From an uncultured Gammaproteobacteria bacterium (GTDB lineage: Bacteria; Pseudomonadota; Gammaproteobacteria; SZUA-229), in NCBI GenBank assembly GCA_965368175.1, contig CBDULX010000001.1, forward strand, positions 1-46,512: a stretch of 46,512 nt of DNA, written 5' to 3'. The notes beneath the pieces are model-generated. The model was given only the letters and a program-made list of their open reading frames with translations. It was not told the DNA's origin and searched no databases. Numbering within the stretch: the stretch's first letter is position 1; every line of letters begins with the position of its first letter. The position numbers and the translations under genes are program-made. Shown one piece after another: positions 7,351 through 16,619 of the stretch.

Positions 7351-8931
7351 ATGACTACTCAAAACATTCATGCCGATCGTATCCTTATTCTGGATTTTGG
7401 TTCTCAGTATACTCAGTTGATTGCGCGTCGCATCCGTGAAGCGGGTGTGTATTGTGAGCTTTATGGCTGGGATATGGATGTTGAGGTGCTTAAGGCGTTT
7501 AAACCTTCAGGCATTATCCTCTCCGGTGGCCCGGAGACGGTGACAGAAGAAGAATCGCCCGTTGCGCCGGCTATCGTATTTGAGCTGGGAGTACCGGTGC
7601 TGGGTATTTGCTACGGAATGCAGACCATGGCCGAACAGCTGGGTGGTAAGGTAGAGAGTGCCGATCACCATGAATATGGCTACGCACAGGTGCGCGCTCG
7701 TGGGCACACCCGGTTGCTGAAGGACATCGAAGACCACACCACCGAAGACGGTTATGGCCTGCTGGATGTGTGGATGTCTCACGGCGATCGTGTGGTGGAT
7801 ATGCCTGAGGGTTTCAAGCTCATGGCATCGACCGATTCTGCACCCATCGCGGGTATGGCCAATGAGGAAAAAGATTTTTACGGTGTGCAGTTTCACCCGG
7901 AAGTTACCCATACTCGACAGGGTTTGCGTATTATCCAGCGTTTTGTTCATGACATCTGTGGTTGCGGTAATTTGTGGACCGCCGACAACATTATCGATGA
8001 TTCTATCGAAACTATTCGCAAACAGGTGAGTAAAGAAGAAGTATTGCTGGGCCTGTCCGGAGGCGTCGATTCATCGGTCGTTGCCGCGCTATTGCACAAG
8101 GCCATTGGTGATCAACTGACCTGTGTATTTGTAGATAATGGCTTATTGCGCTATGGCGAAGGTGATCAGGTGATGGCGACCTTCGCCGAGCATATGGGTG
8201 TTAAGGTAATTCGGGTGGATGCCGAGCAACGATTCCTCGATGCGCTCAAGGGTGAAATTGACCCCGAGAAGAAACGCAAAATTATTGGCAATCTGTTTGT
8301 TGATATTTTTGAGGAACAGGCCAGTAAACTGGACAATGCAAAGTGGCTGGCCCAGGGTACGATTTATCCCGATGTGATTGAGTCTGCCGGTGCTAAAACC
8401 GGCAAGGCGCATCTAATCAAGTCCCACCATAATGTAGGTGGCCTGCCGGATTACATGAAACTGAACCTCTGTGAACCATTACGAGAATTGTTCAAAGATG
8501 AAGTACGCAAGCTGGGAGTGGAATTGGGCCTGCCTTATGACATGGTGTATCGCCACCCTTTTCCTGGCCCGGGTCTGGGTGTGCGCATTCTTGGTGAAGT
8601 TAAAAAAGAATACGCCGATATTTTACGTCTGGCCGACCATGTTTTTATAGAAGAGCTGCACAAGCATGAACTGTACGATAAGGTTTCCCAGGCCTTCACT
8701 GTATTCCTGCCTGTGAAATCAGTGGGCGTGACCGGTGACGGTCGCCGTTATCAGTATGTCGTAGCCCTGCGTGCCGTTGAAACCATCGATTTCATGACCG
8801 CCCGCTGGGCCCACTTGCCGTACGATTTTCTGGATCATGTATCACGCCGAATTGTGAATGAAGTGAACGGAATTTCCCGTGTGGTGTACGACATCACCGG
8901 CAAACCCCCGGGCACGATTGAGTGGGAATAA
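7351..8931 (+). CDS. guaA: GMP synthase (glutamine-hydrolysing)
   Basis: 526 aa. GATase domain (GICYGMQ), ATP-PPase P-loop SGGVDSSV, and the canonical C-terminus KPPGTIEWE*. Confidence 0.97.
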
Positions 8932-8937
8932 ATAATC

Positions 8938-9013
8938 TTGCCACAGAGACACAGAGGTCACTGAGGTTTTTATAATTTAATAATTTCTCTGGGTTCTCCG
9001 TGACTCTGTGGCG
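8938..9013. repeat. REP-like hairpin (TTGCCACAGAG family), probable guaA terminator
   Basis: TTGCCACAGAGACACAGAGGTCACTGAGG, an AT-rich loop, then CTCTGGGTTCTCCGTGACTCTGTGGCG. An identical copy lies at 16067-16142. Confidence 0.7.
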
Positions 9014-9028
9014 TGTTAATAATCAACA

Positions 9029-9103
9029 ATGGAAAATAACGACCAACACTGGATGCAGCAGGCCCTGGAACTGGCTGCCAGGGCTGAAGCCGAAGGCGAG
9101 GTT
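9029..9103 (+). pseudogene. 5' stub of tadA (first 25 codons) left at the island's left junction
   Basis: MENNDQHWMQQALELAARAEAEGEV is identical in protein to the start of intact tadA at 16158. Homology stops at 9103. Confidence 0.9.
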
Positions 9104-9419
9104 TCTCGAAATTTTCATAACCAATCAAGTTCTTGAATTCGCCTTCAATTAAATAGCCCTGCATCGATCGAGCAGAGTTTCAAAGGGTTCGATGTCGTCG
9201 AGAAACGAACCGTCGTCGACCACGTGCTGATGGAAATAGACCTGTACAGGCTAAAAAGCAGAATTATATGCAAGTGCCACCCAACCTCCTTCACTGTATT
9301 ATTGAGGATAAAAACAAGTCAACCGGATATATACCTGTAGATGAAAGTTTTGTTTTATAACGAGATCAATCCTGTCAGAATCCCCGGGCTTAAGAAAATG
9401 AAAATCTATATGGAAACGG

Positions 9420-12116
9420 ATGAGTTCTTTTGACTTAGGCCTGCTACCCTCAGGACATCTGCACGGCTTCCCAGTAACAGCGGATGGCGCTGCAGGTAAA
9501 GAGGCTCATATTGCCACCATCGGCAAGGCATTTGCACGTAGCGTGGGGGAAGGTTTGTTCACCCTTGCGGCCAGCAAAAACGGTACAGCTCTCTCCCCAG
9601 CATTGCAATATTGGCGCAATTTTGCCTGCAAATATCTGAGTGAACGCTGCCAGCTGACATCAGCAGATCCGCAGCGGCCTGATCTTCTCGAGCCGCTCAC
9701 AGATGCAGAAACCATGCCTCTGCTCATGAGTGTGCCACCCATGCGCGGAGCCGAGTATCTCTCTGCTGCGGTGCTGCAGGATATCCGCTCCTTGCTGGAT
9801 AGCTGGGTCTGTGAACAGATACAGGCTGTCGGCGGACTTGATGTTCTCCTAGCCAGGAGAGCGCCGCAATGGCATCAGGTGGGACGGGTCTGTTTTCATC
9901 TGGCGGAAAATAAAAGTGATCCGGATTACCCTTTTGCCTTCATGGCAACCTATGTTCCCGAACTTTCAGCGCAGGGACATATTCGCCATCAACCTCTCAG
10001 CCGCGCCTTACAGGAATATGCGGGTGCTAAAAACAAAAAGGCATTAATCCGCCTGCTTTCGCCTGTTCAACTCGCCGCCGAGTCCAGCGCAGTGGTTAAC
10101 GAGCTGGTTGATAGCGGCGACATCTATCATCCGTTGGCCTGGACACCCGGAGAGGCGTATGAGTTTCTCAAAGAAACACCGCTGTACGAGCAGAGTGGTG
10201 TTATCGTCCGGTTACCCAATTGGTGGAAAAAACGTAGCAGACCACGTGTCAGTATCACTATTGGTGGGAGTGCGCAAAAGAATTTCAATGCCGATGCTTT
10301 GCTGGATTTCAAAATGAGTATCGCCCTGGGCGATGAATCCCTCAGCAAAGCCGAGCTCAAGAAACTGATGGCGGAGGATAATGGTCTCGCTTTTATTAAG
10401 GGCCAGTGGGTTGAGGTGAATCAGGAGAAACTGATTGAAGCCATGGCTCACTGGAAAAAGGTGGAGTCTGAAATGGCGAGTGATGGGCTCACGTTTGCAC
10501 AGGGGATGCGCCTGCTGGCCGGAGCACCCGCCGATCTACGGGAGGATGTCCAGGAAGAGAGCAGAGAGTGGTCTTTTATTCAACCGGGGAAATGGCTGGC
10601 TTCACAGCTAGAGGTGTTGCGCTCACCGGCTCAAGTGAAGACCGTCAATCCGGGTAAAGCACTCAAAGCGACTCTTCGGCCCTATCAACAGGAGGGTGTG
10701 AACTGGCTGTGGTTACTCTCTCAGTTGGGATTAGGTGCCTGTCTGGCGGATGATATGGGGTTGGGGAAAACTATGCAGGTCATCTCGCTGCTGCTGGTTG
10801 TAAAAAAGATAGAAAAGCAAAACACGAGAAAACCCTCCCTGCTGGTGCTTCCTGCATCTCTTCTCGCCAACTGGCAAGTGGAACTGGAGCGTTTTGCCCC
10901 CTCACTGCGCTGCCTGTTTTTGCACAGCTCCCGGCTGAGCAAAAAAACGATGAATGGGTTGGCGGATGAAAGTGCCGTCCTGAAGAATATCGATCTGGTG
11001 TTGACCACTTATGGCACACTGATGCGTCAAAATTGGCTACAGGAGCAGCAGTGGCGACTGCTGGTACTGGATGAGGCCCAGGCGATCAAGAATCCGGCCG
11101 CCAGGCAGAGCAAAGCGGTCAAGAAACTCAATGCCGCATCCCGTATTACACTGACCGGTACGCCAGTGGAGAACCATTTATCGGATCTCTGGTCCCTGTT
11201 TGACTTTCTGAACCCCGGTTTGCTTGGAACCGCTAATCGGTTCAAAGGGTTTGTGAAATCACTCTCTGCGCGGGAGAGTGATCAATATGCACCATTACGC
11301 AATCTGGTGAATCCCTATATCCTGCGCCGTCTTAAAACCGACCGCTCAATCATCAGCGACCTGCCGGAGAAGACCGAAGTGTCCTCATACTGTGGTTTGA
11401 GTAAAGTCCAGGCGGCACAATATCAGCAGGCCGTTACAGAACTTGCAAAAGCCATTGAAAATCAGGATGGCATGAAACGGCGCGGTCTGGTGCTATCCTA
11501 CCTGTTACGCTTCAAACAGATTTGTAATCACCCGTCGCAACTGCTGGGTGATGATGTGTATGATCCGCAACAGAGTGGCAAATTTCGGCGTCTGGCCGAG
11601 CTTTGTGAAGAGATAGCCGAGCGCCAGGAGAAGCTTTTGGTCTTTACCCAGTTCCGTGAAATAATCGCTCCGTTGGCAAGCTTTCTGGCGCAACAATTTG
11701 GCCAGCCAGGCCTGGTGTTACACGGAGGTACTCCGGTCAAGCAACGGCAAAAACGGGTTGAGCAGTTCCAGGATGAAGAAGGGCCACCATTTTTTATTCT
11801 CTCCCTCAAGGCGGGAGGAACCGGCCTTAACCTGACACAGGCATCCCATGTAATCCATTTTGATCGTTGGTGGAACCCGGCTGTGGAAAACCAGGCCACA
11901 GACCGAGCCTTTCGCATCGGCCAGAAAAAAAACGTGCTGGTGCATAAATTTATCTGTCAGGGAACAGTAGAAGAGAAGATAGACGTCTTGATCAATGAGA
12001 AAACGGCTCTCGCCAATGATCTATTGGAAGGTGGTGCCAATACACTGCTGACAGAGATGGATAACGAGGCATTACTTAATCTGGTTTCACTCGACATTGA
12101 GAAGACACAAGTCTGA
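9420..12116 (+). CDS. SNF2/SWI2-family DEAD-like ATPase with a long bacterial-type N-terminal domain
   Basis: 898 aa. All helicase motifs are intact: I LADDMGLGKT, II DEAQAIKN, III LTGTPVEN, IV VFTQF, V LKAGGTGLNLT, VI HFDRWWNPAVENQATDRAFRIGQ. The ~430-aa N-terminal region (RVCFHLAE...PFAFMATY) resembles, from memory, the domain seen in SNF2 proteins partnered with SWIM proteins. Confidence 0.9.
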   Translation: MSSFDLGLLPSGHLHGFPVTADGAAGKEAHIATIGKAFARSVGEGLFTLAASKNGTALSPALQYWRNFACKYLSERCQLTSADPQRPDLLEPLTDAETMPLLMSVPPMRGAEYLSAAVLQDIRSLLDSWVCEQIQAVGGLDVLLARRAPQWHQVGRVCFHLAENKSDPDYPFAFMATYVPELSAQGHIRHQPLSRALQEYAGAKNKKALIRLLSPVQLAAESSAVVNELVDSGDIYHPLAWTPGEAYEFLKETPLYEQSGVIVRLPNWWKKRSRPRVSITIGGSAQKNFNADALLDFKMSIALGDESLSKAELKKLMAEDNGLAFIKGQWVEVNQEKLIEAMAHWKKVESEMASDGLTFAQGMRLLAGAPADLREDVQEESREWSFIQPGKWLASQLEVLRSPAQVKTVNPGKALKATLRPYQQEGVNWLWLLSQLGLGACLADDMGLGKTMQVISLLLVVKKIEKQNTRKPSLLVLPASLLANWQVELERFAPSLRCLFLHSSRLSKKTMNGLADESAVLKNIDLVLTTYGTLMRQNWLQEQQWRLLVLDEAQAIKNPAARQSKAVKKLNAASRITLTGTPVENHLSDLWSLFDFLNPGLLGTANRFKGFVKSLSARESDQYAPLRNLVNPYILRRLKTDRSIISDLPEKTEVSSYCGLSKVQAAQYQQAVTELAKAIENQDGMKRRGLVLSYLLRFKQICNHPSQLLGDDVYDPQQSGKFRRLAELCEEIAERQEKLLVFTQFREIIAPLASFLAQQFGQPGLVLHGGTPVKQRQKRVEQFQDEEGPPFFILSLKAGGTGLNLTQASHVIHFDRWWNPAVENQATDRAFRIGQKKNVLVHKFICQGTVEEKIDVLINEKTALANDLLEGGANTLLTEMDNEALLNLVSLDIEKTQV

Positions 12117-12137
12117 TAGAGAAGGGGGATAAATAAA

Positions 12138-13172
12138 ATGCATTATGGTGGATGGCCTCCATATGTGTCGGTCGCACAACGACGCGCCAGGGCAGCCAAA
12201 GGCATGAAAAAGCTGGGCAAGAAGGGCCTGGAGATTGAACCCATAGAGATTCAGGGACGTAAGATCGCTCGCACATTCTGGGGTGAGGCCTGGTGCAATC
12301 ATCTGGAAAAATTTAGCGATTATGAGAATCGCCTACCGCGGGGTCGAACCTATGTACGTAACGGTTCAGTGTGTCATCTTGCCATTTCAAAGGGAAAAAT
12401 CGAAGCCATTGTCAGTGGTTCGGAACTCTACAGAATCAACATTAATATCACCCCTCTGTCCATAAAGAATTGGAAAAACGTGCGCAAACAGTGTGCCGGA
12501 CAAATCGGTTCCATGCTGGAACTGTTGCAGGGGCGTTTTTCTGATAATGTAATGGAGATCGTAACCGATCAAAACAATGGGCTGTTTCCCAGGCCTGACG
12601 AAATAAAACTCGCCTGTGATTGTCCCGACTGGGCCGAAATGTGCAAACATATTGCCGCCGTCTTGTACGGTGTTGGTGCCAGGCTGGATCACCGGCCTGA
12701 ACTACTTTTTCTGCTGCGGAATGTTGATCATGAAGCGCTGATTGCAGCGGAGCTGGATATACAGTCAGCAACATCCAGAAAAGGGAAACGGCGGCGGCTG
12801 GCGGTAGCTGATCTTTCCTATGTGTTTGGTGTGGAGTTGGAAGAGTCCGTCAAACCCGGTCACAAAAATAGTACAGTCAGCAAAAAAACGGCCAGGAAGA
12901 GAAGTAAGAAGAAGACAGTTAAAAAGAAGATTGCCCTAAAGACGAAGAAAAAAGCATTTACACCGACAGCAACGGCAGTCACCAGGCTACGTAAGCGATT
13001 TGGGATGAACGCATCTCAGTTTGCAAAGTTGGTTGGTGTGAGTCCGCAGACGGTAAATAGCTGGGAAAACGGCAGTGGTAAGCTCAATCTCCGCCAACGT
13101 ACCACAGATGCGCTTACCCAGGCGGCTGAACTTACGCCGGAGCAGGCCATGAGAAAGTTAAAACGTAGCTGA
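12138..13172 (+). CDS. SWIM zinc-finger protein with a lysine-rich linker and a C-terminal XRE-type helix-turn-helix
   Basis: 344 aa. SWIM signature CDCPDWAEMCKH (CxCxnCxH). The N-terminal FWGEAWCNHLE...RLPRGRTYVRNGSV is typical of bacterial SWIM proteins. The linker is KKTARKRSKKKTVKKKIALKTKKK. The C-terminal LRKRFGMNASQFAKLVGVSPQTVNSWENGSGK is a classic XRE HTH. It starts 21 nt after the SNF2 stop, with a GGGGGA SD. Confidence 0.85.
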   Translation: MHYGGWPPYVSVAQRRARAAKGMKKLGKKGLEIEPIEIQGRKIARTFWGEAWCNHLEKFSDYENRLPRGRTYVRNGSVCHLAISKGKIEAIVSGSELYRININITPLSIKNWKNVRKQCAGQIGSMLELLQGRFSDNVMEIVTDQNNGLFPRPDEIKLACDCPDWAEMCKHIAAVLYGVGARLDHRPELLFLLRNVDHEALIAAELDIQSATSRKGKRRRLAVADLSYVFGVELEESVKPGHKNSTVSKKTARKRSKKKTVKKKIALKTKKKAFTPTATAVTRLRKRFGMNASQFAKLVGVSPQTVNSWENGSGKLNLRQRTTDALTQAAELTPEQAMRKLKRS

Positions 13173-13175
13173 ATT

Positions 13176-13248
13176 GTAGTAGCCCCGACTTGACCTGACC
13201 GTTACCGGTTTTGCGGAAGCGACTGTCCGGTCAAGTCGGGACTACTAC
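13176..13248 (+). terminator. long stem-loop just after the SWIM-HTH gene (20-bp stem, 33-nt loop)
   Basis: GTAGTAGCCCCGACTTGACC (13176-13195) pairs with GGTCAAGTCGGGACTACTAC (13229-13248) with one mismatch. It begins 4 nt after the stop codon. There is no U-tract, so it may be a structural or recombination site rather than a simple terminator. Confidence 0.45.
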
Positions 13249-13308
13249 ACATGAGTTTGTTACACATAATGTGATTTGTGAGGGTTGAGGCGAGGACTGG
13301 CTTCACCA

Positions 13309-13494
13309 CCACCCAGGTGGATTATCTCTGCCCGAAGGGGGTTGGTTTGAGGGTGGTCGATTTTATGTGAAGAGGGCCAAGGTCGCGAATGAACAATGAC
13401 AATGGTATTTTTCATGGTATTGACACTTGCGACCACCGTAAAACCCGCGCCACTACTGGCTTTTTGCGGCTTATTTACAATCGAATGGGAGTAG
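13309..13494 (+). repeat. internal island junction: a copy of the island right-arm sequence followed by a decayed guaA 3'-end
   Basis: 13309-13410 aligns at roughly three-quarters identity with 15826-15924 plus 15987-16004. This includes an exact 18-mer ACAATGACAATGGTATTT (13393-13410 = 15987-16004). Downstream, 13477-13494 reads ACA ATC GAA TGG GAG TAG = TIEWE*, the conserved GuaA C-terminus. Confidence 0.6.
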
Positions 13495-13755
13495 GGTTTT
13501 TTAATAAATTATTGTTTATTAAATGAAAAATGCTATGACTGAGAGTTTAAATCAAATGGTCAACGAGTTGGCACTTTGTCCTAGGACAAATCGTGCTGGA
13601 ACCCTGGATTTTATTAGGTGTAACAGCAGGAAACGTCAAGTAAGTGAGTTACCAATTGTCGAACTCAAGGTGCTGGGCGGGTAAGCCGCGACTGGATACA
13701 GCATTTATACTTCTATACATAAAAAAGGACAGTATATTGGTCATAAATAGCCCTT

Positions 13756-13850
13756 GTGACTGTTTTCGTGGTCATTCCGCTTGACATTTGTTTAAGGAAT
13801 GGCTATTAATATAGCCATAAAATAATTTAGTGACTGTTTTCGTGGTCATT
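13756..13850 (+). promoter_or_regulatory. hipBA promoter/operator region
   Basis: TTGACA (13781-13786), a 17-nt spacer, then TATTAA (13804-13809). It is flanked by two identical 21-bp repeats GTGACTGTTTTCGTGGTCATT (13756-13776 and 13830-13850). The -10 lies inside the dyad GGCTAT-taat-ATAGCC (13801-13816). Confidence 0.6.
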
Positions 13851-13864
13851 GTCAGGTGGGCCAG

Positions 13865-14197
13865 ATGGTGAAGGACAGAACATATTCGCGATATACGCGT
13901 GAGGCTGCGGCCTTGCTGGCCAAGCAGGTCCAGCTCGGACGCAAGCAGCATAAGTGGACCGAGCGTGAGCTTGCGGACCGGGCCGGCATCTCGCGGGCGA
14001 CGCTCCAGAAGATCGAAAAGGGTGACCTGAGCGTGGCCATCGGGCTTGTGTTCGAGGTGGCGGCCCTGGTGGGTGTGACCTTGTTCGATGAGGAGCGCAC
14101 CGCGCTTGCCGCTCACCTTGCCCGCACCGGTGACAAACTGGCCTTGTTACCGAGCGCCGTACGCAAGCGCAGAAAGACGGTGCATGATGATTTCTGA
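13865..14197 (+). CDS. hipB: XRE-family HTH antitoxin HipB
   Basis: HTH WTERELADRAGISRATLQKIEKGD. The stop overlaps the hipA start by 14 nt. The ATG at 13865 is preceded by AGGTGG (13854-13859). The track start at 13856 is an in-frame GTG. Confidence 0.85.
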   Translation: MVKDRTYSRYTREAAALLAKQVQLGRKQHKWTERELADRAGISRATLQKIEKGDLSVAIGLVFEVAALVGVTLFDEERTALAAHLARTGDKLALLPSAVRKRRKTVHDDF

Positions 14198-15488
14198 GGG
14201 ATCCTACAGCGAGGCCTTTGTCTGGGTGTGGTTGCCTGGTGAAGCTCAACCGATCGTGGCAGGCAGGCTGGCTGCCGAAGGCGATCAACTGATCTTCAAT
14301 TACGGTAAGAGCTATTTGGCTCGTGATAATGCCATTGCGCTCTATCATCCCGAGTTGCCCTTACAGGCCGGGCTTATTCCATTGCTTCCGGGTCTAAGCA
14401 TGCCTGCCTGCATCCGCGATGCCTCGCCGGATGCCTGGGGGCGGCGTATTATCATCAATAAAAAGTTCGGCCTGAAAGGCGCGAAGGCTGATGCAGGCCA
14501 GCTTGATGAGTTGACCTATTTGCTGGAGTCCGGCTCGGACCGTATCGGGGCTCTGGATTTTCAGCGTTCTGCCACCCACTATGTTCCGCGCGGATCGGTG
14601 AATGCTTCTCTAGATGAACTCGTGCAAGCCGCCGAGTTCATTGAGAAAGGCCTGCCGCTGAGTCCGGAGCTCGATCATGCTTTGCAACACGGTACTTCGC
14701 TCGGTGGTGCGCGGCCCAAGGCGCAGCTTGAAGACGGTGACAAGAAGTATATCGCGAAGTTTTCTTCGACGACTGATCTTTATAGCGTTGTAAAGGCTGA
14801 GTTCATCGCTATGCGCCTGGCGTCACAGGCCGGGCTTAACGTTGCGAGTGTGTCGCTGACCAGATCTTTGCACAAAGACGTTCTACTGATCGAGCGCTTT
14901 GACCGCGTGCATACCGGGGCCGGGTGGCAGCGCAAGATGATGGTCTCGGCGCTCACCATGTTCGTGCTCGATGAAATGATGGCGCGCTATGCCAGCTATG
15001 AAGACCTCGCTGAAATTATCCGTCACCGCTTTACTGATGCACCCGCCACGCTGCGGGAGCTCTACTCTAGGCTCGTCTTCAACATCCTCTGCGGCAATAC
15101 CGACGATCATGCTCGCAATCATGCCGCATTCTGGGATGGAGAAATACTTACGTTGACCCCAGCTTATGATATCTGTCCGCAAGGGCGTACAGGCAATGAA
15201 GCCTCGCAGGCCATGCTGATCGCCGGTAACAACCGAATGAGCTGCATATCCTCTTGCCTGGAGGCGGCGGCACAGTTTCTTTTGCCGCGCGCGGCGGCAA
15301 TCGATATCATCGAAAGCCAGCTCACCAGCATCATTGATCACTGGGATGCGATCTGCGATGAAGCGTCGCTCAGCGCTACCGATCGTGGGTTTCTCTGGGG
15401 GCGCCAATTCCTGAACCCCTATGCCTTTGATAACCTCAATGGCGATGCTACACACCTGAAGGCGCTTGCTGATAAGGCGAGCTTTTAG
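14184..15488 (+). CDS. hipA: type II toxin HipA-family serine/threonine kinase
   Basis: 434 aa from the ATG at 14184. HipA motifs are SLGGARPKA and the catalytic loop NTDDHARNHA. The N-terminal coupling-domain-like region is VWLPGEAQPIVAGRL. The track start at 14088 is an upstream extension overlapping hipB. Confidence 0.9.
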   Translation: MMISEGSYSEAFVWVWLPGEAQPIVAGRLAAEGDQLIFNYGKSYLARDNAIALYHPELPLQAGLIPLLPGLSMPACIRDASPDAWGRRIIINKKFGLKGAKADAGQLDELTYLLESGSDRIGALDFQRSATHYVPRGSVNASLDELVQAAEFIEKGLPLSPELDHALQHGTSLGGARPKAQLEDGDKKYIAKFSSTTDLYSVVKAEFIAMRLASQAGLNVASVSLTRSLHKDVLLIERFDRVHTGAGWQRKMMVSALTMFVLDEMMARYASYEDLAEIIRHRFTDAPATLRELYSRLVFNILCGNTDDHARNHAAFWDGEILTLTPAYDICPQGRTGNEASQAMLIAGNNRMSCISSCLEAAAQFLLPRAAAIDIIESQLTSIIDHWDAICDEASLSATDRGFLWGRQFLNPYAFDNLNGDATHLKALADKASF

Positions 15489-15825
15489 ATTTTGCTCATG
15501 GCTTGTGGGCATCAGCCGAAGCGGACGCTGCATAGGTGGTTTTTGTGGAGTTTCGGTTGATTCTTACCGCTCTTATCGAATCGGGGTAAAACCCAATTTT
15601 CCGGGCACATATGATAAAGGTCCTGGACTTTTCTGGATTCCTGGTTATAGCCTTTTCAATAAGTACTCAGTCATTGGACAGATCATGTCGTAACCCTGGA
15701 CTTTATTAAAAGAGAACCTCCGCTCATGATTACATGAATGTTAGCATTGCTTAGGGAGCTTGGAGGAAGACCGACACGAGCATTTGCAAGCGTTGTAAAT
15801 CTCGATACCGGTATGCTATATACTT

Positions 15826-16000
15826 CCACCCTGGCGGATTGAATCTCTACCCGAAGGGGATCGATTTGATAGGCGTTATCGGCTCGATATGATGAGGGCC
15901 AACGTCGTGAGTGGACAATGACAACAAGAAATTCCAATTTTAGTTGTTTGGTCATATAGCTAATTAACGTACTATATATCAATAACACAATGACAATGGT
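15826..16000 (+). repeat. right arm of the island (homologous to 13309-13410), interrupted by a short insertion
   Basis: See the alignment with 13309-13410. ACAATGACAA occurs at 15915-15924 and again at 15987-15996, bracketing 62 nt that are absent from the internal copy. Confidence 0.55.
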
Positions 16001-16060
16001 ATTTCCCGTGTGGTGTACGACATCACCGGCAAACCCCCGGGCACCATCGAGTGGGAATAA
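16001..16060 (+). pseudogene. 3' stub of guaA (last 19 codons + stop)
   Basis: Same amino-acid sequence as the end of intact guaA, with two synonymous differences (ACC/ACG, ATC/ATT). No upstream guaA sequence precedes it. Confidence 0.9.
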
Positions 16061-16232
16061 ATAATCTTGCCACAGAGACACAGAGGTCACTGAGGTTTTT
16101 ATAATTTAATAATTTCTCTGGGTTCTCCGTGACTCTGTGGCGTGTTAATAATCAACAATGGAAAATAACGACCAACACTGGATGCAGCAGGCCCTTGAGC
16201 TGGCTGCCAGGGCTGAAGCCGAGGGCGAAGTC
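16001..16232 (+). repeat. right copy of the 232-bp direct repeat (guaA 3' stub + spacer + start of intact tadA)
   Basis: Matches 8872-9103. The guaA stub at 16001-16060 encodes ...[19 protein letters not shown]. Confidence 0.95.
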
Positions 16233-16619
16233 CCGGTGGGTGCTGTCATCGTCAAAGATAATCAGCTTATTGCTGAAGGCTGGAACCATCCCATCCGGTC
16301 TAATGATCCTTCCGCCCATGCAGAAATGATGGCCATGCGTGCGGCAGGGCAAATTTTAAACAATTATCGATTAATGGATACCACACTGTATGTCACCCTT
16401 GAACCCTGTGCCATGTGTGTTGGGGCTATGGTTCATGCACGTATCAAGCGGCTGGTTTTTGGTGCCTATGATCCTAAAACAGGCGCTGCGGGTAGTGCCC
16501 TGGCGCTGATTCAGTCTGATGTACATAATCACAGAATTGAGGTTACAGCAGGTGTGATGGAGGCTGAGTGTCGGGACAGTTTGCAGGCATTTTTCAGGAA
16601 CAGGCGTAAAAAACAGTAA
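16158..16619 (+). CDS. tadA: tRNA-specific adenosine deaminase
   Basis: 153 aa. Deaminase zinc motifs HAEMMA and PCAMCVGA. Confidence 0.93.
   Translation: MENNDQHWMQQALELAARAEAEGEVPVGAVIVKDNQLIAEGWNHPIRSNDPSAHAEMMAMRAAGQILNNYRLMDTTLYVTLEPCAMCVGAMVHARIKRLVFGAYDPKTGAAGSALALIQSDVHNHRIEVTAGVMEAECRDSLQAFFRNRRKKQ

What the first reader, a model, noticed from the sequence alone, without database searches (positions are those of the whole stretch)
9420..13172. SNF2 ATPase + SWIM zinc-finger/XRE-HTH fusion: a two-gene island cargo module of unknown function (candidate defence or anti-mobile-element system)
Seen in sequence:
- An 898-aa SNF2-family protein has every ATPase motif intact (GLGKT, DEAQ, TGTPVEN, the QATDRAFRIGQ arginine finger) and a ~430-aa non-helicase N-terminal region.
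- 21 nt downstream is a 344-aa protein with a SWIM CxCxnCxH finger (CDCPDWAEMCKH).
- That protein also has a strikingly lysine-rich linker (KKTARKRSKKKTVKKKIALKTKKK) and a C-terminal XRE-type HTH (FGMNASQFAKLVGVSPQTVNSWENG).
- The pair is closed by a 20-bp-stem hairpin. It sits inside a repeat-bounded, recombinase-less island next to a hipBA toxin-antitoxin cassette.

Established knowledge:
- The SWIM finger was named for its occurrence in bacterial SWI2/SNF2 ATPases and MuDR transposases. SNF2-SWIM fusions or neighbouring pairs (for example the B. subtilis ywqA/ywqB type) are widespread.
- To my knowledge they have no demonstrated function.
- SNF2-like ATPases are core parts of several anti-phage systems, such as DISARM DrmD and Zorya ZorD.

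Inference: in this accessory context, a DNA-translocating ATPase plus a zinc-finger/HTH partner that could give sequence or structure specificity or autoregulation is a plausible stand-alone nucleic-acid surveillance module. The HTH fusion on the SWIM partner is the unusual element. I cannot tell from sequence alone whether the module is a defence system, an island maintenance function or a transcription/repair factor.
Basis: partly seen in the sequence, partly recalled or inferred. Interest (0 to 1): 0.85.

Follow-up and report, generated by a model that had tools for sequence, protein, structure and literature searches.

The report
Widespread SNF2 translocase with SWIM partner
This is an intact two-gene operon for a DNA-translocating SNF2 ATPase and a zinc-finger/DNA-binding partner; it belongs to a very widespread, strongly conserved but still uncharacterised bacterial gene pair, and nothing found here marks it as an unusual or defence-specific system.

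Summary
The 898-aa SNF2 gene (9420-12116) and the 344-aa SWIM/basic-linker/HTH gene (12138-13172) lie 21 nt apart. A strong hairpin closes them. They sit in a 6.9-kb insert bounded by 237-nt direct repeats, next to hipBA.

- **Pair is widespread:** the same pair, full length and adjacent, occurs in all 80 best species loci from at least eight phyla, at 45-80% identity. No third conserved gene and no effector domain was found.
- **HTH fusion is common:** 63 of 73 nearest partners carry it, as do 55 of 137 representatives at 50% identity. The rest carry H1-like basic tails or other small HTHs.
- **Family placement:** the motor is closest to Sulfolobus SSO1653/SsoRad54. The 427-aa N-terminal region models confidently but has no relative in PDB or BFVD.
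- **Context:** neighbours elsewhere are mostly ordinary genes, with sparse TA, Abi and IS genes. The pair also occurs on 126 plasmids.

Best reading (about 0.5): a two-subunit dsDNA translocase or remodeller, tethered to DNA by its partner, that displaces DNA-bound proteins. Defence is not excluded (about 0.2).

This is a new member of a known, uncharacterised kind.

The parts
8866..9102 (.). Left copy of the 237-nt direct repeat: true guaA 3' end, intergenic hairpin, and a duplicated fragment of the tadA 5' end
   Evidence: It is 97% identical to 15995-16231. The centre is identical and the mismatches lie at the outer ends.
9274..9302 (+). Sigma-70-like promoter candidate upstream of the operon
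   Evidence: 9 of 12 match. This is a consensus match only. The number of sites found is not above the shuffle expectation.
9341..9433 (+). 30-codon relic ORF (MKVLFYNEINPVRIPGLKKMKIYMETDEFF*). It is the first ~28 codons of a UvrD-like helicase gene that precedes SNF2 in relatives, and it overlaps the SNF2 start.
   Evidence: L005, L006 and L007 carry the full 946-949-aa helicase at this position.
9420..12116 (+). SNF2-family ATPase, 898 aa, SSO1653-like motor
9420..10700 (+). Family-specific N-terminal region (residues 1-427, including DUF3670 at nt 10125-10514). The AF2 model is confident and has no solved structural relative.
   Evidence: (pLDDT 88.3, pTM 0.79)
10683..11921 (+). SNF2 motor: SNF2-rel_dom (422-706) and Helicase_C (725-834), with motifs I, II, III and VI intact
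12138..13172 (+). Partner protein, 344 aa: SWIM N-terminal module, basic linker, Xre-type HTH
12138..12842 (+). Conserved SWIM module (residues 1-235). The CxCx7CxH motif lies at nt 12615-12650.
   Evidence: (5786 representative clusters)
12882..12953 (+). Lysine-rich (H1-like) linker, with 16 K/R in 30 residues
   Evidence: The length varies among homologues.
12960..13169 (+). C-terminal Xre/HTH_3 domain (residues 275-344)
   Evidence: It is the only confident part of the AF2 model (pLDDT 72-90).
13175..13249 (+). Large hairpin closing the operon
   Evidence: -51.6 kcal/mol, z = -7.9. It is unique in the window.
13856..15488 (+). hipB-hipA toxin-antitoxin cassette. It is a separate cargo of the same insert and is not part of the SNF2 module.
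   Evidence: G+C is 0.57. hipB is 95% identical to a Ca. Thiodiazotropha copy, whereas SNF2 is only 79% identical.
15995..16231 (.). Right copy of the direct repeat: a duplicated guaA 3' fragment, the intergenic hairpin and the true tadA start

Best explanation
The two genes encode the two subunits of a prokaryotic Snf2-type dsDNA translocase or remodeller of the SSO1653 subfamily.

**Proposed mechanism**
- The SNF2 protein supplies the ATP-driven motor, plus a family-specific 420-aa N-terminal adaptor or regulatory region that contains DUF3670.
- The partner's conserved SWIM module docks onto that N-terminal region.
- The partner's lysine-rich, H1-like linker and terminal HTH hold on to duplex DNA, largely without sequence specificity.
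- With one subunit anchored, ATP hydrolysis pumps DNA past the complex. This generates torsion or loops and displaces or repositions DNA-bound proteins such as stalled or post-termination RNA polymerase, nucleoid proteins or recombinase filaments.
- The module is therefore a non-essential, horizontally mobile genome-maintenance or transcription accessory, not an immune system.

**Shown**
- Domain content and intact motifs.
- Strict pairing of the two genes and very strong conservation.
- The interchangeable DNA-binding tail.
- A natural fusion of the two modules.

**Inferred**
- Physical complex formation.
- DNA anchoring by the partner.
- The identity of the displaced substrate.
For: **Motor**
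- The best solved relative is the Sulfolobus SSO1653 core (1Z63; E 7.7e-127 over residues 415-893).
- All ATPase motifs are intact.

**Obligate pairing**
- A full-length SNF2 homologue lies upstream of the partner in all 80 best loci. It is directly adjacent in 78 of them.
- The SNF2 and SWIM genes are the only gene families shared among the loci: 73 members each, with the next largest cluster having 4.

**Rosetta-stone fusion**
- In a Wolbachia WO region, the partner's SWIM module (34% identity, E 4e-25) is fused N-terminally to a DUF3670 + SNF2 protein.

**Tail behaves as a generic DNA tether**
- 116 of 136 diverse partners have at least 9 K/R in a 30-aa window after the SWIM module.
- The terminal domain is swapped among Xre HTH (55 of 137), excisionase/MerR-like HTH, winged helix or none. 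It is sometimes repeated 2-4 times.
- No conserved operator or SOS box lies upstream of SNF2 in 64 loci.

**Housekeeping-like conservation and no effector**
- The pair is 45-80% identical over its full length across Gammaproteobacteria, Desulfobacterota, Planctomycetota, Verrucomicrobiota, Cyanobacteria, Spirochaetota, Acidobacteriota and others.
- No nuclease, protease, TIR or PLD domain is present.
- Neighbour genes are mostly ordinary.

**Relatives with functional hints**
- B. subtilis YwqA co-purifies with RNA polymerase, and its loss aggravates PcrA depletion (PMC7385302; PMC10804225).
- A pneumococcal Snf2 protein represses pilus genes (citation in PMC8465756).
Against: - No experiment exists for this subfamily. 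Complex formation and DNA anchoring are inferences.
- The AF2 model of the partner's SWIM module was poor (pLDDT 48), and no multimer prediction could be run.
- The local context is accessory: a repeat-bounded insert shared with a hipBA cassette.
- The pair is on 126 plasmids, often among IS elements.
- A few neighbours elsewhere are Abi, TA, Fic or DRT genes.
- SNF2 motors do serve in Zorya, DISARM, Dpd and BREX.
- The HTH could still be a sequence-specific regulator whose operator co-evolves and so escapes a cross-species motif search.
- The pair decays in tubeworm endosymbionts, so it is dispensable.
Confidence: 0.5

Rival explanations
1. It is an effector-less anti-phage or anti-plasmid system. 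The SWIM/HTH subunit senses foreign DNA or a phage protein. The SNF2 translocase then strips replication or transcription complexes from the invader, or recruits host nucleases.
For: - The island context beside hipBA.
- The pair occurs on 126 plasmids, 56 of them conjugative.
- The motor resembles ZorD, DpdE, DrmD and BrxH models.
- There is a weak hit of partner residues 64-105 to the candidate PDC-S62 (E 9e-7).
- Some neighbours in other genomes are AbiE, AbiL, DRT, Fic or PIN genes.
- A UvrD-like helicase, with weak GajB-like hits, is fused into the operon in L005-L007.
Against: - All defence-model hits cover only the generic motor and lie far below the curated cutoffs: ZorD 327 against 1500, DrmD 98 against 950, DpdE 56 against 500.
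- No ZorABC, Drm or Dpd partner genes are present, and there is no nuclease or other effector.
- Conservation is unusually high for an immune gene, at 45-80% across phyla.
- Most neighbours are ordinary genes.
- No paper in the held library links SWIM proteins to phage defence.
Confidence: 0.2
2. It is a function of mobile elements themselves. The remodeller would help plasmids or islands establish, replicate or be expressed in a new host, for example by clearing host silencing proteins such as H-NS-like NAPs from incoming DNA.
For: - The pair is present on large conjugative plasmids of Bradyrhizobium, Streptomyces, Cupriavidus, Nostoc and Aeromonas.
- A fused version lies in a Wolbachia WO region.
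- RecD2 lies next to the pair on a Bradyrhizobium plasmid.
- The pair lies in an insert with the signature of Campbell-type integration.
Against: - Only 0.17% of plasmid records and one phage record carry it.
- In most of the 80 species loci the flanks are chromosomal housekeeping or metabolic genes. Transposases lie within two genes in only a few loci.
- No linkage to conjugation, partition or replication genes was seen.
Confidence: 0.12
3. The partner is mainly a sequence-specific Xre-type repressor or activator. It targets the SNF2 ATPase to particular promoters, giving ATP-dependent gene regulation as reported for the pneumococcal Snf2 and pilus genes. This includes autoregulation of its own operon.
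For: - The HTH_3 domain is bona fide and well conserved.
- It resembles the MqsA, HigA and HipB antitoxin HTHs.
- There is precedent for a pneumococcal Snf2 repressor.
Against: - The HTH is replaced by unrelated small domains, or is absent, in about 60% of representative partners, while the SWIM module and basic tail persist.
- There is no conserved palindrome upstream of SNF2 in 64 loci, and no inverted repeat in 9050-9450 apart from a 10-nt palindrome.
Confidence: 0.13
4. In this genome the module is a decaying remnant, left after loss of the upstream helicase gene, and no longer does anything.
For: - The 30-codon relic of the UvrD-like helicase gene lies at 9341-9433.
- SNF2 is internally deleted in two tubeworm endosymbionts.
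Against: - Both ORFs are full length, with every catalytic and zinc-binding residue intact.
- Most loci never had the helicase gene, and the helicase also occurs alone.
- Four independent assemblies keep the pair intact.
Confidence: 0.05

Closest known systems
Sulfolobus solfataricus SSO1653 / SsoRad54 (PDB 1Z63, 1Z6A), the founding member of the SSO1653 subfamily of Snf2 proteins
   Same: It is the best solved-structure match to the motor (E 7.7e-127, residues 415-893). It is a prokaryotic Snf2 with a long non-motor N-terminus. Its biochemistry (dsDNA-dependent ATPase, topology change) is the most likely activity here.
   Different: It is archaeal, and its reported partner is RadA. No SWIM/HTH partner has been described for it, and homology of the N-terminal regions was not tested here.
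Bacillus subtilis YwqA (SWIM-containing Snf2, described as a RapA-like RNAP interactor)
   Same: It is a bacterial Snf2 of the non-RapA group associated with a SWIM finger. It is poorly characterised, interacts with RNA polymerase, and its loss aggravates PcrA depletion.
   Different: From my memory, not tested here: in YwqA the SWIM finger is in the same polypeptide and the accessory domain is PF08455 rather than DUF3670. YwqA has no HTH partner.
NCBIfam NF058637 SCO1167/SCO6262 family helicase (Streptomyces)
   Same: It is the best NCBIfam match. The alignment covers DUF3670 plus the motor (residues 207-891, 580 bits). Streptomyces plasmids also carry the pair.
   Different: The score is half the curated cutoff of 1200. 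The first 200 residues do not align. No function is known for this family either.
E. coli RapA/HepA
   Same: It is a bacterial Swi2/Snf2 ATPase with an autoinhibitory N-terminal domain, and it releases RNA polymerase from DNA. It is a plausible functional analogue.
   Different: It scores 72 bits against a cutoff of 576, so this protein is not a member. RapA works as a single polypeptide and lacks DUF3670 and SWIM.
Defence-system SNF2 proteins: Zorya ZorD (8QY7), DISARM DrmD, Dpd DpdE, BREX BrxH
   Same: They share a homologous motor domain.
   Different: The similarity is confined to the motor. The N-termini differ, ZorD's nuclease domain is absent, none of the obligatory partner genes is present, and all curated cutoffs are missed.
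Eukaryotic ISWI/Chd1-type remodellers and Mot1
   Same: The motors are about 245 bits similar. Their logic is the model proposed here: a Snf2 motor plus a separate DNA-binding module that anchors on flanking DNA while the motor moves DNA or evicts a bound protein.
   Different: Their substrates are nucleosomes or TBP. Their DNA-binding modules (HAND-SANT-SLIDE) are unrelated and lie in the same polypeptide.

Membership tests
Snf2 family, SSO1653 subfamily | An Snf2-type bipartite motor with motifs I-VI, most similar to SSO1653 rather than to RapA or eukaryotic subfamilies | tested here: met
   Pfam SNF2-rel_dom 1.6e-67 and Helicase_C 6e-22. The motifs are located. The best PDB sequence hit is 1Z63 at E 7.7e-127, against 1e-72 for ISWI. 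RapA scores 72 against a cutoff of 576. No phylogeny was built.
DUF3670 (PF12419) SNF2-associated domain | A Pfam match above the gathering score, located N-terminal to the motor | tested here: met
   120.6 bits against 27.6, residues 236-365
SWIM zinc finger (PF04434) | A CxCxnCxH signature and a Pfam match above the gathering score | tested here: inconclusive
   The score is 18.8 bits against a gathering score of 19.6. The signature C160-x-C162-x6-C169-x-H171 is present and invariant in 24 homologues. Homologous partners score above the cutoff: 25.1 in the WO fusion and 22.4 in Bradyrhizobium.
Xre-type HTH (PF01381 HTH_3) | A Pfam match above the gathering score | tested here: met
   33.7 bits against 23, residues 283-318. 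AF2 gives a confident helical domain at 275-344.
Zorya (ZorD) | A ZorD-level score, a C-terminal or N-terminal nuclease domain, and adjacent zorA/zorB/zorC genes | tested here: not met
   NCBIfam anti-phage_ZorD scores 327 against a cutoff of 1500. The PADLOC hits cover the motor only. The neighbours are guaA and hipBA.
DISARM (DrmD) | A DrmD-level score with drmA, drmB and a methylase or drmE nearby | tested here: not met
   Scores are 98 against 950 and 68 against 610. No such genes are in the window region.
Dpd (DpdE) | A DpdE-level score within a dpdA-K 7-deazaguanine cluster | tested here: not met
   NCBIfam DpdE scores 56 against 500. No dpd genes are adjacent.
RapA/HepA | A RapA equivalog score | tested here: not met
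   72 against 576
SCO1167/SCO6262 family helicase (NF058637) | An equivalog score of at least 1200 | tested here: not met
   580 bits, aligning residues 207-891 only. It is the closest named family, but this protein is not a member.
Type II toxin-antitoxin pair (HTH antitoxin plus toxin) | A small HTH antitoxin adjacent to a small toxin, with autoregulatory operators | tested here: not met
   The HTH resembles MqsA and HipB only at domain level, below the cutoffs. The partner gene is an 898-aa ATPase. No operator-like repeats lie upstream.
Genomic island / integrative element | Flanking direct repeats at a conserved target, an integrase, and an empty site in relatives | tested here: inconclusive
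   The direct repeats are present. No integrase is present. No empty site was seen: four assemblies of the same population all carry the insert.

The most novel reading that the evidence does not exclude
The SNF2 + SWIM/H1-like-tail/HTH pair is a true bacterial 'chromatin remodeller'. The partner would ride on the nucleoid through its histone-H1-like tail, and the motor would evict or slide nucleoid-associated proteins or polymerases. Alternatively, it is a new effector-less class of anti-mobile-element immunity that works purely by ATP-driven eviction of replication or transcription machinery from foreign DNA. Either would give a function to one of the most widespread uncharacterised prokaryotic Snf2 families, whose N-terminal region has no known fold relative.
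Probability: 0.15. Interest if true: 0.8.

Novelty: new member of a known kind. Interest (0 to 1): 0.38.

Why it matters
**Open question**
- Prokaryotic Snf2 proteins of the SSO1653 group occur in a large share of microbial genomes (PMC2677860). Their cellular role has stayed open for about 20 years.
- The SWIM-partner association has been known since the SWIM domain was defined (from my memory), but it has not been explained.

**What this window adds**
- It gives a compact, intact, natively promoted example of about 3.9 kb. The insert has clean boundaries and is easy to clone.

**What the survey adds**
- The partner has a constant architecture: SWIM module, H1-like basic tail, and an interchangeable DNA-binding domain.
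- A natural fusion of the two modules exists.
- The motor's N-terminal region gives a confident model with no fold relative in the PDB or BFVD.

**Scope**
- These points sharpen a testable model: a DNA-anchored translocase.
- They do not reveal a new kind of system. The finding as stated (unusual HTH fusion, likely defence) is largely ordinary.

Tried and rejected
**Structure**
- An AF2 model of the whole partner from a 24-sequence alignment was poor (pLDDT 48).
- Foldseek of the confident SNF2 N-terminal model found nothing in the PDB (best E 0.97) or in BFVD (best E 0.08).

**Regulatory signals**
- A search for an operator for the HTH found no SOS box and no shared palindrome or 8-mer in 64 upstream regions. 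The apparent ATCAATCC motif came from homologous coding sequence.
- Only a 10-nt palindrome lies in 9050-9450.
- The Rfam scan of 8800-16300 gave only a sub-threshold psRNA2 hit over the hairpin (21.5 against 65 bits).

**Fusions**
- An apparent SNF2-SWIM fusion in L025 was an ORF-calling artefact in a high-GC genome, since a stop codon is present.
- P0079 looks like a deletion or assembly chimera. Both were rejected as fusion evidence.

**Three-gene system hypothesis (UvrD-like helicase + SNF2 + SWIM)**
- The helicase is linked to the pair only in L005-L007, plus the relic in the window.
- It also occurs without the pair (L088, L089). It was rejected as a core component.

**Empty site and other collections**
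- Exact-protein look-ups for guaA and tadA found only the same population, which carries the insert.
- No DNA match was found in 5,426 E. coli genomes.

**Literature**
- Searches for SWIM+SNF2, DUF3670, helZ/Rv2101/Rv2102, SCO1167 and sll1366 found no functional study.
- Basset et al. 2017 could not be opened.

Full report
**1. The observation**

ORF listing confirms an 898-aa ORF at 9420-12116 and a 344-aa ORF at 12138-13172. Both are on the + strand and lie 21 nt apart.

Pfam places these domains on the first protein:
- DUF3670 at residues 236-365
- SNF2-rel_dom at 422-706
- Helicase_C at 725-834

On the second protein, Pfam places HTH_3 at 283-318. A SWIM match at 154-177 falls 0.8 bit under the gathering score.

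The SWIM Cys/His ligands are invariant in 24 homologues.

The closing hairpin is real. It has 28-nt arms, folds at -51.6 kcal/mol, and scores z = -7.9 against shuffles. It lacks a U-tract and is unique in the window.

The 'repeat-bounded island' is also real.
- A 237-nt segment is present at 8866-9102 and again at 15995-16231, at 97% identity. It contains the guaA 3' end, the intergenic hairpin and the first 74 nt of tadA.
- The centre of the repeat is identical and the mismatches sit at the outer ends. That is the pattern left by Campbell-type integration of a circle carrying a slightly diverged copy of the guaA-tadA junction.
- No recombinase ORF lies inside.
- hipB/hipA occupy 13856-15488.

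**2. How common the pair is**

The best are 71-83% identical over the full length and come from Ca. Thiodiazotropha, Sedimenticola and other sulfur-oxidising Gammaproteobacteria.

The 80 best loci span Gammaproteobacteria, a betaproteobacterial MAG, Desulfobacterota, Planctomycetota, Verrucomicrobiota, Cyanobacteria, Melainabacteria, Spirochaetota, Acidobacteriota and others.

In every one of these loci a homologue of the whole 898-aa SNF2 protein lies upstream of the partner, at 50-80% identity and usually over residues 1-898. It is directly adjacent in 78 loci. In two Geobacter loci it is separated by 1.7 and 5.9 kb.

Clustering of all flanking ORFs shows that these two genes are the only shared families. 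Each has 73 members, and the next cluster has 4. This is an autonomous, obligate two-gene unit.

An exhaustive HMMER search with the SWIM module (residues 1-235) finds 5,786 clusters at 50% identity. Of these, 1,052 score at E <= 1e-30.

**3. The HTH fusion is the rule, not the exception**

A profile of the C-terminal domain detects the HTH in 63 of 73 partners from the nearest loci, counting the window. It also detects it in 55 of 137 full-length representatives at 50% identity.

The others keep the SWIM module. Their tails are of three kinds:
- K/R/A/P-rich, histone-H1-like or AlgP-like repeats
- a different small DNA-binding domain, such as an excisionase/MerR-like 'GVPRSTFQNWL' HTH or a winged helix
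- several tandem copies of linker plus HTH

A strongly basic stretch follows the SWIM module in 116 of 136 representatives. The median is 11 K/R per 30 residues, and the window has 16.

The constant features are therefore the SWIM module plus a basic disordered tail. The terminal DNA-binding domain is interchangeable. This argues that the tail supplies generic DNA affinity rather than recognition of one conserved operator.

Consistent with this, no SOS box, palindrome or shared word was found upstream of SNF2 in 64 loci. The window's own upstream region has no operator-like repeats.

**4. What the SNF2 protein is**

By sequence, its motor is closest to the Sulfolobus SSO1653 catalytic core (1Z63; E 7.7e-127). 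Next come a 1,080-aa bacterial helicase (8QY7, which I believe is ZorD) at 2.8e-78, then eukaryotic ISWI, SNF2H and INO80.

[quoted passage not shown] The SSO1653 subfamily and the RapA group are the two prokaryotic Snf2 groups (PMC2677860).

Curated models reject membership of every named family:

| Family | Score (bits) | Cutoff (bits) |
|---|---|---|
| SCO1167/SCO6262 | 580 | 1200 |
| pilus-regulating Snf2 | 332 | 1100 |
| ZorD | 327 | 1500 |
| DrmD | 98 | 950 |
| RapA | 72 | 576 |
| DpdE | 56 | 500 |

The PADLOC hits to ZorD, DpdE and DrmD cover only residues ~400-890, which is the motor.

The first 427 residues gave a confident AF2 model from a 62-sequence alignment (pLDDT 88.3, pTM 0.79). 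That model has no significant Foldseek match in the PDB (best E 0.97, TM < 0.13) or in BFVD. The N-terminal region is conserved (38% mean column identity, many invariant aromatic and Gly/Pro positions) but structurally unassigned.

**5. Evidence that the two proteins work as one machine**

Adjacency is effectively 100% in the sampled loci. In addition, a Wolbachia WO-region gene encodes one polypeptide carrying three elements:
- the partner's SWIM module at residues 6-173 (34% identity, E 4e-25; Pfam SWIM 25 bits)
- DUF3670 at 541-672
- the SNF2 domain from residue 713

This is a Rosetta-stone fusion.

Two apparent fusions in my own data were rejected as artefacts.

**6. Context: defence island or not**

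I scanned 150 ORFs lying within two genes of the pair in 55 loci.
- The commonest Pfam families were sulfatase, histidine-kinase domains, HAMP and MFS, at 2-3 members each. Fic (3), AbiEii (2), PIN (2) and transposase/integrase domains (2 each) also occurred.
- PADLOC models hit sparsely: PDC-S04 3; a DpdF-like helicase, PsyrT and SoFic 2 each; AbiE, AbiL and DRT 1 each.
- This is at most a mild accessory flavour. It is not the dense defence neighbourhood typical of immune systems. I could not compute a matched control.

The pair is mobile.
- tblastn finds it on 126 of 72,556 plasmids. Of these, 56 are conjugative, and Bradyrhizobium and Streptomyces predominate. It often lies among IS elements.
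- Only one phage record has it.

In the window, the pair's G+C (0.52 and 0.49) equals that of guaA and tadA (0.50), while hipBA is 0.57. hipB is 95% identical to a Ca. Thiodiazotropha copy, while SNF2 and its partner are 78-79% identical and tadA is 56%. hipBA is therefore the recently moving cargo, and the SNF2 pair looks older.

Three further metagenome contigs carry the identical arrangement guaB-guaA-SNF2-SWIM-hipBA-tadA at 99.85% identity. No empty site was found.

**7. An unexpected detail at the 5' end**

The 80 nt before the SNF2 start encode MKVLFYNEINPVRIPGLKKMKIYMETDEFF* (9341-9433). This is the beginning of a 946-949-aa UvrD-like SF1 helicase with an ankyrin segment. In L005, L006 and L007 that helicase sits directly upstream of SNF2 and overlaps its start.

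The junction falls at the microhomology GGATGA(T/G)TTC. The window lineage therefore deleted about 2.8 kb of helicase gene, and it kept the promoter, the start and translational coupling.

The helicase is not a general component.
- It is absent from the other loci.
- It occurs without the pair in two metagenome contigs.
- It has no named family, only weak GajB/Rep/PcrA-level similarity.

**8. Mechanism**

I commit to the following model at about 50% confidence.
- The SWIM module binds the DUF3670-containing N-terminal region of the ATPase.
- The basic tail and HTH anchor the complex on duplex DNA.
- The motor then translocates DNA relative to that anchor. This creates torsion or loops and removes DNA-bound proteins.

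Functional analogues are RapA (RNAP release), Mot1 (TBP eviction) and ISWI/Chd1 (a DNA-binding domain anchoring on flanking DNA).

The most likely substrates are stalled or post-termination RNA polymerase, or recombinase/NAP complexes. The reasons are these:
- B. subtilis YwqA is reported to interact with RNAP, and its loss aggravates PcrA depletion.
- SsoRad54 stimulates RadA.
- A pneumococcal Snf2 represses pilus genes.

What is shown: architecture, intact motifs, obligate pairing, the fusion, the variable tether, and strong purifying conservation. What is inferred: the complex, the anchoring and the substrate.

The rivals are rated as follows:

| Rival | Confidence |
|---|---|
| Effector-less defence | 0.20 |
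| Sequence-specific regulator | 0.13 |
| Mobile-element establishment function | 0.12 |
| Decaying remnant | 0.05 |

**9. Verdict**

The finding is accurately observed but over-interpreted. It is a new member of a known, very widespread and still uncharacterised kind: an SSO1653-type Snf2 with a SWIM partner.
- The HTH fusion is common.
- The defence reading is neither supported nor excluded.

Interest is moderate. The family's function is a real, long-standing gap, and this survey sharpens a testable model. The window itself adds no surprise beyond a convenient, compact example and a helicase-deletion scar.

Noticed in passing
window 9341-9433: A 30-codon ORF overlapping the SNF2 start is the 5' relic of a 946-949-aa UvrD-like (SF1, ankyrin-containing) helicase gene. 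That gene lies directly upstream of SNF2 in L005, L006 and L007. A deletion of about 2.8 kb at a GGATGA(T/G)TTC microhomology removed it here. The helicase also occurs without the SNF2 pair (L088, L089).
   Followed up: partly
window 8866-9102 and 15995-16231: The 237-nt direct repeats are identical in the centre and differ only near their outer ends (7 mismatches). This is the signature of single-crossover (Campbell) integration of a circle carrying a diverged guaA-tadA junction. No integrase is present. Three more assemblies of the same population (L084-L086, 99.85% identical) all carry the insert.
   Followed up: partly
window 13856-15488; L001 8603-10235: hipB is 94.7% identical to a copy in Ca. 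Thiodiazotropha (L001). In L001, hipBA and tadA also lie within 7 kb of the SNF2-SWIM pair but are inverted, and hipA appears split. hipBA has G+C of 0.57 against 0.50 for the neighbouring genes, so it looks like the recently transferred cargo.
   Followed up: partly
window 13756-13776 and 13830-13850: An exact 21-nt direct repeat, GTGACTGTTTTCGTGGTCATT, occurs twice with 74-nt spacing just upstream of hipB. These are probably HipB operator sites.
   Followed up: no
L020 8347-9983; L071 7383-7984: In two Lamellibrachia tubeworm endosymbionts the SNF2 gene has large internal deletions (residues ~336-770 and ~103-796 lost). In L071 the partner is truncated as well. The pair decays in host-restricted symbionts.
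   Followed up: no
P0004 (500 aa), P0354 (582 aa): Some partner proteins carry three or four tandem copies of the basic-linker-plus-HTH unit after a single SWIM module.
   Followed up: no
window 13316-13402 vs 15835-15924: A stretch of about 90 nt downstream of the SWIM gene is ~80% identical to one downstream of hipA. A further 44-nt match (13573-13616 vs 15665-15708) lies in a different order. These may be remnants of a shared element or of cassette ends.
   Followed up: no
L082 3620-5821 (Bradyrhizobium plasmid p26S5a): A bona fide RecD2 helicase (882 bits against a cutoff of 500) lies just upstream of the SNF2-SWIM pair on a conjugative plasmid. It is a second, unrelated SF1 helicase found next to the pair.
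   Followed up: no
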